A stretch of 64,000 bases of DNA from a virus. Of this stretch, positions 7,699 through 33,003 are shown piece by piece. Both the position numbers and the translations under genes were made by a program. How positions within the stretch are numbered: position 1 is the first letter of the stretch; each line of letters begins with the position of its first letter. The notes under the pieces were generated by a model. It searched no databases, had not been told where the DNA came from, and saw only the letters and a list, made by a program, of their open reading frames with translations. The stretch is from IMG/VR virus record IMGVR_UViG_3300028025_000090, one strand, 5' to 3'.

Positions 7699-8079
7699 AT
7701 GACAATTGCCAAACAATTAAAGATCAAAGAATTTCCATTTGAAATCAAAGATTCCAATGGTAAAGAGATTTACTGGGAGGACTCCAATGGATATTGGTCA
7801 AAGCGTGAATTCGATTCCAAGGGTAATCGGATTTACTTCGAGAACTCCTATGGATTCTGGGAAAAGCGTGAATACGATTCCAAGGGTAATAAGATTTACT
7901 TTGAGGACTCCGATGGATATTGGGTAAAACGTGAATTCGATTCCGAGGGTAAAGAGATTTACTACGAGGACTCCAAGGGAAAAATCATTGACAATCGTAC
8001 CAAAACGGAAATCCAAAAAGCCATCGAACTCTTGACAAAAGAAGGATTGCTGGTAGATGGAAAGATTCTTAAAAACTAA
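7699..8079 (+). CDS. 21-aa-repeat protein, paralogue 1 (3 units)
   Basis: MTIAKQLKIKEFPFEIKDS head, xxIYxExSxGxWxKRExDSxG units, KAIELLTKEGLLVDGKILKN tail. Confidence 0.9.
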   Translation: MTIAKQLKIKEFPFEIKDSNGKEIYWEDSNGYWSKREFDSKGNRIYFENSYGFWEKREYDSKGNKIYFEDSDGYWVKREFDSEGKEIYYEDSKGKIIDNRTKTEIQKAIELLTKEGLLVDGKILKN

Positions 8080-8093
8080 ATTACAATTACATT

Positions 8094-8474
8094 ATGACAA
8101 TTGCTAAACAATTAAAAATCAAAGAATTTCCATTTGAAATCAAAGATTCCGATGGTAATCAGATTTACTGGGAGAACTCCAGTGAATTCTGGGCAAAGCG
8201 TGAATTCGATTCCAAGGGTAAAGAGATTTACTGGGAGACATCCGATGGAGCTTGGATAAAGCGTGAATTCGATTCCGAGGGTAATCGGATTTACTACGAG
8301 AACTTCAAGGGATATTGGGAAAAACGGAAATACGATTCCAATGGTAAAGAGATTTACTGGGAGACTTCCAATGGAGTAATCATTGATAATCGTCCTAAAA
8401 CAGATGTGCAGAAAGCCATCGAACTCCTCACAAAAGAAGGATTGATCGTGGATGGAAAGATTCTTAAAAACTAG
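8094..8474 (+). CDS. 21-aa-repeat protein, paralogue 2 (3 units)
   Basis: Same head, tail and unit. Confidence 0.9.
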   Translation: MTIAKQLKIKEFPFEIKDSDGNQIYWENSSEFWAKREFDSKGKEIYWETSDGAWIKREFDSEGNRIYYENFKGYWEKRKYDSNGKEIYWETSNGVIIDNRPKTDVQKAIELLTKEGLIVDGKILKN

Positions 8475-8722: not shown

Positions 8723-8832
8723 AATATATCTCGATACAAACCGAGCTAAGGGATTCCCAATCTCTGAAAAGAATCGTAAGCGGTCTTTTTTGTATAGACT
8801 TTTACGAAAGATTTGGTAAGTATCATAATAAC

Positions 8833-8927
8833 GAGGGTGTACCAGAACGCACTTCTAATGCGTGGACGTTTAAATATACTGTAATTGGATATGTCCTATG
8901 TAGGTTCGAATCCTATCATCCTCGCCA
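8833..8927 (+). ncRNA. tRNA-like RNA, anticodon UCU (Arg), no D-arm, enlarged extra arm
   Basis: Acceptor GAGGGTG/CATCCTC + G-CCA; anticodon arm ACGCA-CTTCTAA-TGCGT; T-arm GTAGG-TTCGAAT-CCTAT; only 7 nt between acceptor and anticodon stems. Confidence 0.75.
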
Positions 8928-8928
8928 T

Positions 8929-9846
8929 TTATTTCCTGATAAAATATCCTCTAGGTGGGTAATCTACAATACCATATGATCTACACCACTTTCTAATGGC
9001 ATTATCAGACACTTCATATTTTTTTCCTATTTTCGTGAATGGTAATTCCCATAGTAAATTCTCCAATTCTTCTTTACTAGGTTTTATTCGATGTGAATGT
9101 TGTTTGATTGCAGCACATTGATTACACCTACAAGCTGTTTTGGATATATCAATACCACAATCAATACAACATTTAACCTTCTTTGTTATTGGGATATAAT
9201 TAAAATAATCAAATTCAACTTTAACATTCGCATTTGATAACTTATCTATAAAATCACCCCACTTATCTAAATTGAAACATGCTGAATAATGAATCTCATA
9301 TACATCCCATCCATTAGCTTCTAACAAATCATGTCTTTCCTGATAGTAAGCTTTCAATGTTCCATCTCTTTCATAATGCTGATTACCATTGATTTCTAAT
9401 GCTATCATCTTATCAGGTAATGCTATATCAATAGAAAACGATCTACTATCAATTTCTGGTTGATACTCTTCTATATATGATATATTCAATTGTGTTAGAA
9501 ATTCTTTTACTTTCTCACAAGGTTTTGATTTGAACTTGTCTTTATTTCTCCATGGATGTTTATCAGGATTATCTTTTAACCATTGCTTTCTCTTCTCTGA
9601 TAGATTCCTTTTTGTTTCATCTGTATGTTTTTTTCTTATGTTGATATTTTCATTGACGATGAACAATTTTTGTTCTCTCGCATTTTTAAGTGCTGCATAT
9701 GGTAATTTATATTCTTTCCTTAATTTCGACATTGTAACGCCTCTATCGTGTAACTCTTGAATATGATTCCAGTCGTATCTATCTTCCAATTTACCCCATC
9801 GCAACTCATTCATGATTTTTGCTCTATCTTTATCAATCGAACTCAT
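8929..9846 (-). mobile_element. Free-standing homing endonuclease (NUMOD3-like motif + PD-(D/E)XK DUF559/Vsr-like domain + Zn ribbon + HTH); start revised from 9927
   Basis: RKKHTDETKRNLSEKR; FSIDIALPDKMIALEINGNQHY; CIDC...CNQC; TAAATA-N5-ATG upstream; opposite strand to array, between two tRNA-type genes. Confidence 0.75.
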
Positions 9847-9939
9847 ATTATTATTTATCTCCAATGTTAATATTTTCACTCTATCCAGTAAATAAAGATA
9901 TTGACATTCATAAAAACTAGAATACACTTTACATACAAT

Positions 9940-10011
9940 GCGCTTGAAGCATATCGGTCATGCAGCCGTCTCATAAACGGCAGAAAGCAGGTTCAACTCC
10001 TGTCGGGCGTA
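9940..10011 (+). tRNA. tRNA with CAU anticodon (Met or Ile2)
   Basis: D-stem GCAT/ATGC, anticodon arm GCCGT-CTCATAA-ACGGC, T-arm GCAGG-TTCAACT-CCTGT; weak acceptor with G-U pairs; no CCA; bounded by two array motifs. Confidence 0.8.
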
Positions 10012-10045
10012 CTAATTTATTAAAAAACTAGATTACAATCAGGAC

Positions 10046-10363
10046 ATGACAATTGCACAGCAACTTAAAATCAAAGAATTTCCATTTAAAATCAAAGATT
10101 CCGAGGGTAATCTGATTTACTCTGAGAACTTCAGTGGATATTGGGTAAAGAGTGAATACGACTCCGATGGTAATAAGATTTACTTTGAGAATTCCGATGG
10201 ATTCTGGGTAAAACGTGAATACAATTCCGAGGGTAATCGGATTTACTATGAATCTTCCTATGGAACAATCGTTGATAATCGCCCTAAAACGGAAATCCAA
10301 AAAGCCATTGAACTTCTCACGAAAGAGGGATTGATCGTAGATGGTAAGATTCTTAAAAACTAA
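10046..10363 (+). CDS. 21-aa-repeat protein, paralogue 3 (2 units)
   Basis: Same head, tail and unit. Confidence 0.9.
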   Translation: MTIAQQLKIKEFPFKIKDSEGNLIYSENFSGYWVKSEYDSDGNKIYFENSDGFWVKREYNSEGNRIYYESSYGTIVDNRPKTEIQKAIELLTKEGLIVDGKILKN

Positions 10364-28586: not shown

Positions 28587-29114
28587 ATGAAGAAAACAAA
28601 TTTGATATTATTACATGCATATGAGATTGGATATAGATGTGATGAACAGGGGAACGTTAGTTCAAAAAAAGGAATCATAAATCCTTATATCAATAGTAAT
28701 GGATACTTATCTTTTTCAGTGAAAGTGAGTCCACCAATCCATCACAAATTGGCATCTAAAGCTGTGCCTGTTCACAGACTACAAGCATATCAAAAACATG
28801 GTGATGAAATTTTCGGTGAAAACATTCATGTGAGACATCTGAATGGGAATCCTCTAGACAATTCATACGATAATATTTTAATTGGTAGTGTATCAGAAAA
28901 TTCTTTGGACAGACCAAAACATTCAAGAATAAAAAACGCTATCAATGCATCCAATAAAATTAGAAGATTCACAGATTCTGAGATATTGGAAATCAAAAAA
29001 TTTCATAAAGAAAACAAATCAACGTATAAAGAAACGATGAGTAAATTTAATATTAGCAGTAAAGGATCATTACATTACATATTGAATACTGAATACGTAA
29101 CAAACAAAGGGTAG
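28587..29114 (+). mobile_element. HNH homing endonuclease (start revised from 28497)
   Basis: VHRLQAY...VRHLNGNPLDNSYDNI; own TTGACA-N15-TAAGAT-N5-ATG promoter; inserted between tRNA-Thr and tRNA-Tyr. Confidence 0.85.
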
Positions 29115-29193
29115 GTAAAGCCAGTGGCTCTGGCAGTCAGACTGTAAATCTGATCTCTTCTGAGGGGTGGATCGATACCACACCTGCCCACCA
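29109..29193 (+). tRNA. tRNA-Tyr(GUA)
   Basis: Loop CTGTAAA; long variable arm; CCA encoded. Confidence 0.92.
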
Positions 29194-31482: not shown

Positions 31483-33003
31483 ATGGAAAAATTTCATAAA
31501 TTATATCGTCAACTCATGCGCGAGTATGTGGAAGACTTCGATCAGAAATGGGATAAAGCTGTTTCCGAATCGGAGGAGCTTCAGGTAGCTCTTGATTTGA
31601 TGAAAAATATCAAAGCAAAATTAAAAGGTGAAATTTATATCGTCGGTGGTGTTCCTCGTGATTTGCTCATGGGTAACGCAATTGATGATGTGGATTTGGC
31701 TACCAATATTCCTGTAGAACAATTGGAGAAACATTTTGAATTGAGAAATATTTCTAAGAACGATTCTCAACCAGTCTATGCTATCCTATGGAAAGGATAT
31801 GTTTATGATTTGGCAAAATTTAGAACTGATTCTGGTGATATTGGTAGGCAAGCGAATGTCTCAACTGAGACTGATTCCTTTCAAGCTGATACAGAACGCA
31901 GAGATTTAACAATCAATTCTTTCGGGTTGGATGAGAATGGTAAGATCGTAGATTATCAAGGTGGTCTGGATGATTTGAAAAACAAAATCGTTCGTGCTGT
32001 AGGTGATGCCAAGAAGAGATTCATGGAAGATGCTACAAGGATTCTTCGCGTTTTCCGATTCGCTGCCAAGATGGATTTTGAAATTGAAGACGATACTAAA
32101 AAAGCAGCAATCGAATTGAAATATTTGCTTCAAGATCCGAAAGCTATTTCCAAAGAAAGTATCTCGAAAGAATTTTATAAGTCTGCCAAGACTGGTAGAA
32201 CTCTTGCCAACTTCTTGAAAAAATTACAAGACACCAAAATTCTCCATGACATTCTTCCTGAATTTACAGAGATGGAAGGTTTCGATCACGATCCTCAACA
32301 TCACCCTGAAGGAGATTCTCAAGTATTGGGACACATCTATGAGTGTCTGAATGCTTCTCCCTACAAAGATCCTATTATTAATCTTGCTGTATTATTCCAT
32401 GACTTTGGGAAAGCTACGACTAGAGGGAAAAAAGATAATGGATTTAGTAGCTATCATGGTCACGAAGCTGCTGGTGTTCCCATTGTCGAAGGGATATTTG
32501 AGAGACTAAGATTCAATGAATTGTCTCAACAAGATAAAAAGAATATCTTAGCGGCAGTGGATAAACACATGCTCGTTCATAATCTAGACAAACTCAATAT
32601 TAAAACACTGACTAGACTGATCCAAAATCCTGCATGGGAAACCATCAAAGCAGTTGGTTATTGCGATGAAGCATCGAGAGGCTCTGGTCTTTTCAATGAA
32701 AAAGAATTTTGGGATAAAGTTAAAAGAGCAGAAGAAAAAGTATCCAACATCGGTGGATCGGAAGATGAAACAAGAAAACGTCTCAAGCAATATTTCAGTG
32801 GAAATAAATTGATGGAATGGTTTCCAGTTCTCATCAAAGACAAATCCAAGTTCAAAGATATTACAGCAGCACTGCAAGAATATACTCTTGAAGAGTTGAA
32901 TGCTGGTAGGGAACCAGATGATTCGGAAATGAAGACAATCGTTGCTGGTATTCTAAAGAAGAATCAATTTAATGAATGGTATAATTATTACCAGAAAAAT
33001 TAA
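31483..33003 (+). CDS. cca: tRNA nucleotidyltransferase (CCA-adding) with HD domain
   Basis: IVGGVPRD...DVDLAT, RRDLTINS, EDATRILRVFRFA, HHPEGD, LFHDFGK. Confidence 0.92.
   Translation: MEKFHKLYRQLMREYVEDFDQKWDKAVSESEELQVALDLMKNIKAKLKGEIYIVGGVPRDLLMGNAIDDVDLATNIPVEQLEKHFELRNISKNDSQPVYAILWKGYVYDLAKFRTDSGDIGRQANVSTETDSFQADTERRDLTINSFGLDENGKIVDYQGGLDDLKNKIVRAVGDAKKRFMEDATRILRVFRFAAKMDFEIEDDTKKAAIELKYLLQDPKAISKESISKEFYKSAKTGRTLANFLKKLQDTKILHDILPEFTEMEGFDHDPQHHPEGDSQVLGHIYECLNASPYKDPIINLAVLFHDFGKATTRGKKDNGFSSYHGHEAAGVPIVEGIFERLRFNELSQQDKKNILAAVDKHMLVHNLDKLNIKTLTRLIQNPAWETIKAVGYCDEASRGSGLFNEKEFWDKVKRAEEKVSNIGGSEDETRKRLKQYFSGNKLMEWFPVLIKDKSKFKDITAALQEYTLEELNAGREPDDSEMKTIVAGILKKNQFNEWYNYYQKN

What the first reader, a model, noticed from the sequence alone, without database searches (positions are those of the whole stretch)
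8833..8927. D-armless tRNA-Arg(UCU)-like RNA with an oversized extra arm
Seen: intact acceptor stem with G73-CCA, canonical anticodon loop CU-UCU-AA and canonical T-arm. The D-arm is replaced by TACCAGA, and a 33-nt insert closed by GGACGT/ATGTCC sits at the variable position. A possible promoter (TTTACG-N17-CATAAT) lies just upstream. Established: bacterial ArgRS uses A20 in the D-loop as a major identity element, and D-armless tRNAs are known mainly from mitochondria. Inference: the retained stems and CCA suggest selection, for example as a decoy for anticodon nucleases or tRNA-sensing defences, rather than decay.
Basis: partly seen in the sequence, partly recalled or inferred. Interest (0 to 1): 0.7.

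Follow-up and report, generated by a model that had tools for sequence, protein, structure and literature searches.

The report
Rewired phage arginine tRNA, expanded variant
This 95-base gene in an uncultured T4-like phage is very probably an arginine tRNA (reading AGA) whose D-stem strand and D-loop lie after the anticodon arm instead of before it. It belongs to a large phage family that gene finders miss, and this copy carries the longest inserts seen in the family.

Summary
Rfam calls it tRNA (35 bits, cut-off 29) and ARAGORN does not. It is not truly D-armless. I collected 52 distinct relatives from viral contigs and cultured phages. In all of them, three bases of the "D-replacement" (CAG here) pair with three bases just before a conserved UAA..GGA motif behind the anticodon arm (CUG here). 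This short helix covaries strongly.

The motif matches the D-loop of a related phage's normal tRNA-Arg. In all 50 members with an Arg anticodon an A follows the GG, where ArgRS's main identity base A20 would sit.

Four complete related genomes each hold exactly one Arg(UCU) gene: canonical in one, rewired in three. AGA is the window's commonest Arg codon (47%). A working tRNA-Arg is therefore the best reading. A decoy role is not excluded.

The "oversized extra arm" is specific to this lineage. The 6-bp stem is predicted by folding, but a run that long arises in 10-20% of shuffles, and the three copies found are identical, so it is unproven. The promoter match is no better than chance.

This scan has noted the family before on other DNA. 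I found no paper that describes it.

The parts
8833..8839 (+). Acceptor stem 5' strand GAGGGUG. Pairs with 8917-8923.
   Evidence: The helix covaries across the family.
8840..8842 (+). Connector U8-A9-C10. UA is invariant in alignment A3.
   Evidence: invariant T8, A9.
8843..8845 (+). Helix X 5' strand CAG, a D-stem-like strand. Pairs with CUG at 8879-8881 and encloses the anticodon arm.
   Evidence: Covariation: the pairs are seen as GC, CG, UA and AU.
8847..8863 (+). Anticodon arm ACGCA-CUUCUAA-UGCGU. The anticodon UCU is at 8854-8856, with U33 and A37 present.
   Evidence: All five stem pairs covary.
8864..8878 (+). Linker of 15 nt, against 3-11 nt in the other members.
   Evidence: The stem is not above chance.
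8879..8881 (+). Helix X 3' strand CUG.
8882..8890 (+). Relocated D-loop-like segment UAAUUGGAU. A8883 is A14-like and A8884 is R15-like. G8887 and G8888 are G18/G19-like. A8889 is A20-like.
   Evidence: the canonical relative's D-loop is AACUGGAUA. GG is followed by A in 50 of 50 members with an Arg anticodon.
8891..8896 (+). AUGUCC, the 3' strand of the lineage-specific extra stem. If both form, it crosses helix X and makes a pseudoknot.
   Evidence: -6.4 kcal/mol; P about 0.1-0.2. No covariation data exist.
8897..8899 (+). UAU spacer. U8899 is the Y48-like partner of A8884 in a Levitt-type pair.
   Evidence: the pair is AU in 49 sequences and GC in 2.
8900..8916 (+). T arm GUAGG-UUCGAAU-CCUAU.
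8917..8927 (+). Acceptor 3' strand CAUCCUC, discriminator G73 and encoded CCA.
8801..8829 (+). Promoter-like TTTACG-N17-CATAAT. It is not above chance and lies too close to the tRNA's 5' end.
8929..9927 (-). Free-standing putative homing endonuclease of 332 aa. It fills the gap between this gene and tRNA-Met (9940-10012).
   Evidence: PHROG HNH and homing-endonuclease families; weak PD-(D/E)XK-type matches. It is absent at the orthologous locus of G004.

Best explanation
Window 8833-8927 encodes a tRNA-Arg(UCU) of a 'rewired' design found in many phages.

The chain order is: acceptor strand, U8-A9, one D-stem-like strand (CAG), the anticodon arm, a linker, the other D-stem-like strand (CUG), a D-loop-like UAAUUGGA, the T arm, the acceptor strand, then G73-CCA. 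The 3-bp helix encloses the anticodon arm and can stack on it as the D stem does. The GG can reach the T loop, and the A after it sits where A20 would be.

Inferred, not shown: the RNA keeps an L-shape, is charged by the host ArgRS (via G73, the A20-like base, C35 and U36), and decodes AGA, the phage's commonest Arg codon.

This lineage's copy has the longest linker (15 nt) and tail (18 nt) in the family. The two can pair (GGACGU/AUGUCC), which gives the appearance of an oversized extra arm. Whether that stem forms is open.
For: Family and structure: 19 distinct relatives in a structure-blind MAFFT alignment form standard pairs in 97.6% of cells, against 68.6% when shuffled. For the new helix, pair 12-48 occurs as GC10/UA5/AU3/CG1 and pair 13-47 as GC10/CG6/AU2. 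With 52 members the result is the same, and a Levitt-type pair appears as AU49/GC2. A covariance model of the family scores the window element at 71.6 bits, while ordinary tRNAs score 35.5 bits or less.

Identity elements: G73, C35 and U36 are present, and an A follows GG in all 50 Arg-anticodon members (UCU 33, ACG 8, UCG 5, CCU 4). The one Ile(UAU) member has U there. These agree with the bacterial Arg and Ile identity sets listed in PMC9976931. The canonical tRNA-Arg(UCU) of relative G003 has the D-loop AACUGGAUA, which is the same motif.

Substitution: of four complete related genomes, G003 has only a canonical Arg(UCU), and G004, G005 and G006 have only a rewired one. G004 carries a 79-nt rewired copy at the orthologous locus.

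Demand: AGA makes up 47% of Arg codons in the window, 18.3 per 1000 codons. The window holds no other Arg tRNA.
Against: There are no expression, processing or charging data for any family member. The 3-bp helix is unfavourable on its own (+2.1 kcal/mol), so it would need tertiary support. This copy's inserts lie outside the family's length range, and its 6-bp stem would cross the conserved helix, so this particular allele could be impaired. Only three identical copies exist, so selection on this allele cannot be measured: it has 0 changes in 95 nt while flanks differ by 2.5-5%, which is not significant. Some phages carry a rewired and a canonical Arg(UCU) side by side (L138 and L142), which hints at a non-redundant role. 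The window's whole genome is not held, so a canonical Arg tRNA elsewhere in it cannot be excluded.
Confidence: 0.62

Rival explanations
1. The RNA is a decoy or shield rather than a decoder. It is made and folds like a tRNA, but its main job is to absorb or evade host tRNA-directed defences such as anticodon nucleases that cut tRNA-Arg. The odd core would make it resistant or non-productive.
For: The architecture is conserved in many unrelated phages and is largely confined to Arg anticodons. In L138 and L142 a rewired and a canonical Arg(UCU) sit side by side, so the two need not be redundant. Phage tRNAs that evade tRNA-targeting defences are an established theme (PMC10264068, listed; I did not read it in detail).
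Against: A decoy would not need the full Arg identity set, the 12-bp acceptor/T branch, the Levitt-type pair or an encoded CCA. Three complete relatives have the rewired gene as their only Arg(UCU) tRNA, and a fourth has a canonical one instead, which looks like substitution. The anticodon loop is fully canonical, so it shows no sign of evading a nuclease.
Confidence: 0.13
2. This allele is a decaying copy. The family is functional, but here two expansions (about 11 nt in the linker and about 5 nt in the tail), perhaps linked to the endonuclease gene inserted next door, have disabled it.
For: The window has the longest linker and tail among 52 members. The extra stem competes topologically with the conserved helix. 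The stem's complementarity is no better than chance. Only one lineage carries this form, even after a metagenome-wide scan.
Against: Every other feature is intact: all four family helices, UAA..GGA, the Levitt-type pair, the anticodon loop, the T loop and G73-CCA. The family model scores it at 71.6 bits. The sequence is identical in three assemblies whose flanks differ. Linker and tail lengths vary widely in the family (3-11 and 11-18 nt), so this region tolerates insertions.
Confidence: 0.18
3. The RNA is truly D-armless, built like a mitochondrial tRNA plus an independent long variable arm. The CAG/CUG pairing and the GG motif are irrelevant, and the 33-nt hairpin simply replaces the D arm.
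For: Pseudoknot-free folding prefers the 6-bp extra stem (-23.5 kcal/mol) over the 3-bp helix (-15.0 kcal/mol).
Against: No other family member has the extra stem, yet all have the CAG/CUG-type helix with compensatory changes and the UAA..GGA motif. The window keeps both elements exactly (CAG/CUG and UAAUUGGAU, the latter as in L138).
Confidence: 0.05

Closest known systems
Canonical class I bacterial and phage tRNA-Arg(UCU) (Rfam RF00005), for example the gene at G003:59738 in a related phage
   Same: 7-bp acceptor stem, 5-bp anticodon stem with the CUUCUAA loop, 5-bp T stem with the UUCGAAU loop, G/A73, CCA, a D-loop motif AAYUGGAU with A20, and position inside phage tRNA clusters.
   Different: There is no D hairpin between positions 10 and 25. 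One D-stem strand and the D-loop lie 3' of the anticodon arm, so the textbook cloverleaf cannot be drawn. ARAGORN misses the gene, and GenBank phage records leave family members unannotated.
Rewired phage tRNA-Arg family as noted earlier in this scan on other DNA, with short 78-82-nt members such as those in Pseudomonas phage PAK_P2, Limnohabitans phage DC31, Listeria phage LPML1 and Salmonella phage SSBI34
   Same: All defining features are shared: the UA connector, the 3-bp covarying helix around the anticodon arm, UAA..GGA, the Levitt-type pair and an Arg anticodon.
   Different: The window copy is 95 nt. Its linker is 15 nt (others 3-11) and its tail 18 nt, and the two can form a 6-bp stem that would cross the family helix. 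No other member has this stem.
Mitochondrial D-armless tRNAs, for example bovine mt-tRNA-Ser(AGY) (PMC9976931)
   Same: No D hairpin, a short connector after the acceptor stem, and extra pairs that extend the anticodon helix.
   Different: The phage RNAs keep G18/G19-like bases, a canonical T loop and a Levitt-type pair, which is a complete elbow. They occur in bacterial viruses and are no shorter than normal tRNAs.
Allo-tRNAs and other 8/4 or 9/3 tRNAs (Mukai et al., PMC5389517)
   Same: Non-standard tRNA geometries found in bacteria and phages by metagenome mining.
   Different: Those change how the acceptor/T branch is split but keep a D arm in the normal place. This element has the normal 7/5 split and a relocated D-arm half.

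Membership tests
Canonical cloverleaf tRNA (Rfam RF00005) | Score at or above the family's gathering cut-off | tested here: met
   35 bits against 29, but only with the D arm deleted and a 33-nt insert.
Canonical cloverleaf tRNA (Rfam RF00005) | D hairpin (stem 10-13/22-25 with a D-loop) between the acceptor and anticodon stems | tested here: not met
   Only 7 nt (UACCAGA) lie between the two stems. ARAGORN makes no call.
Canonical cloverleaf tRNA (Rfam RF00005) | 7-bp acceptor stem, 5-bp anticodon stem with a 7-nt loop containing U33, and 5-bp T stem with a UUCGAAU-type loop | tested here: met
   Covariation across the family.
Rewired phage tRNA-Arg family | A 3-bp helix between connector bases 11-13 and the three bases preceding UAA, enclosing the anticodon arm | tested here: met
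   CAG 8843-8845 pairs with CUG 8879-8881. Family covariation.
Rewired phage tRNA-Arg family | A D-loop-like UAA..GGA after the helix, and an A-U (or G-C) Levitt-type pair with the base before the T stem | tested here: met
   UAAUUGGAU at 8882-8890, and A8884 with U8899.
Rewired phage tRNA-Arg family | High score with a family covariance model, well separated from ordinary tRNAs | tested here: met
   71.6 bits against 35.5 or less for ordinary tRNAs. The element was one of the 19 training sequences.
Rewired phage tRNA-Arg family | Compact size: 76-85 nt, linker 3-11 nt, tail 11-18 nt | tested here: not met
   95 nt with a 15-nt linker, which is outside the range, and an 18-nt tail, which is at the maximum.
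Functional tRNA-Arg (bacterial identity set) | A/G73, A20, C35 and U/G36 (PMC9976931) | tested here: inconclusive
   G73, C35 and U36 are present. An A follows GG where A20 would be, but the spatial equivalence is inferred.
Functional tRNA-Arg (bacterial identity set) | Expressed, processed, aminoacylated with Arg and used on the ribosome | not testable with these tools
   No RNA or biochemical data are available.
Mitochondrial-type D-armless tRNA | Loss of D-loop/T-loop elbow contacts, a reduced T loop and an organellar setting | tested here: not met
   The GG and the canonical UUCGAAU are kept, and the host is a phage genome. ARAGORN -mt finds nothing.
Class II tRNA (long variable arm) | A variable hairpin with a small loop, in addition to a normal D arm | tested here: not met
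   The 6-bp stem closes a 21-nt loop that holds the conserved CUG and GG, and there is no D arm.

The most novel reading that the evidence does not exclude
The 95-nt RNA is a working arginine tRNA whose core is not a cloverleaf, and in this lineage both the conserved 3-bp helix and the 6-bp extra stem form. That would give a five-helix, pseudoknotted elongator tRNA. The rewired design may persist in phages because it changes how host tRNA-directed enzymes or defences see the molecule.
Probability: 0.25. Interest if true: 0.85.

Novelty: new variant of a known kind. Interest (0 to 1): 0.66.

Why it matters
Outside mitochondria, elongator tRNAs are taken to share a single cloverleaf topology. 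A large, covarying family of phage tRNAs would show that the L-shape can be built with a different chain order. In this family half of the D arm lies behind the anticodon arm, yet the Arg identity bases and the elbow contacts are kept. It would also mean that phage tRNA inventories are systematically undercounted: GenBank records of PAK_P2, LPML1, SSBI34 and DC31 annotate nothing at these sites. The family offers natural test cases for how ArgRS, RNase P, EF-Tu and the ribosome tolerate a rewired core. The window's copy adds the most expanded form yet seen in the family.

Tried and rejected
Searches for relatives of this allele:
- BLAST of the locus against cultured phages, in near and distant modes, found nothing.
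- The upstream 77-aa protein led only to the near-identical contig.
- A metagenome-wide scan for other long-insert members returned only an identical copy plus chance hits upstream of normal tRNAs. No covariation test of the extra stem was therefore possible.

Ideas considered and dropped:
- I wondered whether the extra-arm loop (ACUGUAA) is a second, Tyr-type anticodon loop, or whether the gene is a chimera with a tRNA-Tyr that shares its T arm. The family alignment explains these bases as the CUG strand plus UAA.
- The promoter reading was rejected as no better than chance and badly placed.
- Conservation of the element relative to its flanks in the three copies is not significant.

Literature:
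- Seven full-text searches and two papers checked gave no description of this architecture.
- One candidate preprint could not be opened.
I could not learn which part.

Full report
**Observation.** They comprise:
- a 7-bp acceptor stem with G73-CCA;
- the 7-nt UACCAGA;
- an anticodon arm ACGCA-CUUCUAA-UGCGU;
- a 33-nt stretch closed by GGACGU/AUGUCC, followed by UAU;
- a T arm GUAGG-UUCGAAU-CCUAU.

The minimum-free-energy fold is this four-arm shape (-24.4 kcal/mol, z = -1.5). Rfam's tRNA model matches at 35 bits (cut-off 29), but only by deleting the D arm and inserting 33 nt. ARAGORN does not call it in bacterial or mitochondrial mode. The promoter-like TTTACG-N17-CATAAT is present, but such matches are as common in shuffled sequence. 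Its -10 box also ends 3 nt before the tRNA's first base.

**Setting.** The window comes from an uncultured, distant T4-like phage. Its major head protein is about 32% identical to those of cyanomyoviruses. It encodes a portal protein, a ribonucleotide reductase and a CCA-adding enzyme, and ten ordinary tRNAs. The element lies 19 kb from the main tRNA cluster. A 332-aa putative homing endonuclease on the opposite strand (8929-9927) fills the gap to tRNA-Met at 9940. Identical 95-nt copies lie in IMG/VR contig 3300020042_007317 and in metagenome contig Ga0181343_1059797, whose flanks differ from the window by 2.5-5%. This is therefore not an assembly artefact.

**Relatives.** A covariance model of the element, searched in 36 viral records that share the head protein, found 78-80-nt RNAs with the same layout and UCU or ACG anticodons. 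A degenerate pattern scan of IMG/VR raised this to 19 distinct sequences. A second scan plus cultured-phage hits gave 52. The cultured carriers are Limnohabitans phage DC31, Pseudomonas phages of the PAK_P2 group, Listeria phage LPML1 and Salmonella phage SSBI34. None of these records annotates anything at the site.

**Structure.** In every member, bases 11-13 after the acceptor stem are complementary to the three bases just before a conserved UAA that follows the anticodon arm. The observed pairs are CGG/CCG, CUC/GAG, CGA/UCG, CAC/GUG, CCC/GGG and, in the window, CAG/CUG.

On the structure-blind MAFFT alignment, 97.6% of cells pair (68.6% when shuffled, about 40% when the partner is slid). 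The two variable pairs of the new helix appear as GC10/UA5/AU3/CG1 and GC10/CG6/AU2. The 52-sequence alignment gives the same picture.

Downstream of this helix comes UAA, then one to three bases, then GGA. The A two bases after the helix pairs with the base before the T stem as A-U in 49 sequences and G-C in 2, which is the pattern of the canonical 15-48 Levitt pair. The normal tRNA-Arg(UCU) of relative G003 has the D-loop AACUGGAUA, which is the same motif.

The RNA is therefore not D-armless. One D-stem strand and the D-loop have moved behind the anticodon arm, and the short helix encloses that arm. That the helix stacks on the anticodon stem and the GG reaches the T loop is inference from these patterns and from known tRNA geometry.

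**Function.** Bacterial arginine identity rests on A/G73, A20, C35 and U/G36 (PMC9976931). The window RNA has G73, C35 and U36. All 50 members with Arg anticodons (UCU 33, ACG 8, UCG 5, CCU 4) have an A right after GG. The one Ile(UAU) member has U there, matching the U20 listed for bacterial Ile identity.

Four complete genomes of the same phage group were scanned:

| Genome | Canonical Arg(UCU) | Rewired Arg(UCU) |
|---|---|---|
| G003 | yes | no |
| G004 | no | yes |
| G005 | no | yes |
| G006 | no (has a canonical Arg(ACG)) | yes |

G004's 79-nt copy sits at the orthologous locus, downstream of a homologue of the window's 7502-7684 gene and upstream of tRNA-Leu and tRNA-Met. AGA makes up 47% of Arg codons in the window's 52 long ORFs, and the window has no other Arg tRNA. 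Taken together, this reads as a working tRNA-Arg that replaces the canonical gene. No expression or charging data exist, so I put this at about 0.6 for the window's copy.

**The extra arm.** Compared with its nearest short relative (L138, which has CAG/CUG and UAAUUGGAU), the window has a 15-nt linker instead of 4 and an 18-nt tail instead of 13. These are the longest in the family, where linkers run 3-11 nt and tails 11-18 nt.

The pairing GGACGU/AUGUCC adds -6.4 kcal/mol. It would cross the conserved helix and form a pseudoknot. A 6-bp run between the two segments arises in 10-20% of shuffles. A metagenome-wide scan for other long members found only an identical copy, so no covariation test is possible. 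The stem is plausible but unproven. The inserts may simply be tolerated, or they may have impaired this allele.

Selection rather than decay holds at the family level. The loss of A20 does not hold. The decoy idea gains nothing specific, but it is not excluded, because rewired and canonical Arg(UCU) genes sit side by side in L138 and L142.

**Novelty.** Earlier agents of this scan noted the same family on other DNA many times and found no paper. One note says part of the claim fell elsewhere, without saying which part. My own seven literature searches found nothing either. I rate it a new variant of a known kind, namely tRNA. The window copy is a new and unusually expanded member.

Noticed in passing
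window 29109-29193 (+), with ORF 28587-29114 (+): An 85-nt tRNA-Tyr(GUA)-like gene that neither ARAGORN nor Rfam (E up to 1) detects. It folds as a cloverleaf with an 8-bp acceptor stem, a 4-bp T stem with loop AUCGAUA, and a long variable arm (-34.5 kcal/mol, z = -2.8). An HNH_3 endonuclease ORF sits directly upstream, and its stop codon overlaps the tRNA's 5' end. In relative G001 the same slot, between tRNA-Thr and tRNA-Pro, holds an ordinary 7/5 tRNA-Tyr and no HNH gene.
   Followed up: partly
window 8929-9927 (-); L189 689-1054; L191 703-1062: Endonuclease genes lie immediately 3' of rewired tRNA-Arg genes in three unrelated phages: the window, Pseudomonas phage PAK_P2 and Salmonella phage SSBI34. 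This may be the usual clustering of homing endonucleases in tRNA regions, or it may be linked to allele replacement.
   Followed up: no
L202:1156-1240, L269:463-547, L269:34-115, L210:5442-5524, L194:3917-3999: A sub-class of the family has an 8-nt connector and a longer tail. Connector bases 9-11 pair with three bases right after GGA (AGC/GCU or AAC/GUU). This adds a second covarying 3-bp helix, and the D-loop-like segment becomes a bulge.
   Followed up: partly
L209:5506-5585: A rewired member with anticodon UAU (Ile) has GGU instead of GGA, matching the U20 of bacterial Ile identity. The design is therefore not strictly limited to Arg.
   Followed up: partly
L138:2572-2650 with 2658-2731; L142:1983-2061 with 2069-2142: A rewired Arg(UCU) lacking an encoded CCA is followed 8 nt later by a canonical tRNA-Arg(UCU). 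The two forms coexist in one phage.
   Followed up: no
G030:21979-22063 (L108) and G017:63183-63267 (L110): A Tyr(GUA)-like gene whose GGG after the acceptor stem is complementary to a CCC after the anticodon arm, followed by UUUAUUGGAUU. This may be a rewired tRNA-Tyr with an extra hairpin before the anticodon arm.
   Followed up: no
window 31483-33003 (+): The phage encodes its own tRNA nucleotidyltransferase (CCA-adding enzyme; PHROG 2244, E = 1e-61), close to the main tRNA cluster. This is relevant because several family members lack an encoded CCA.
   Followed up: no
window 7699-8079, 8094-8474, 10046-10363 (+): Paralogous repeat proteins (units such as YWEDSNGYWSKREFDSKGN) with constant ends flank the tRNA-Arg/endonuclease/tRNA-Met island.
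   Followed up: no
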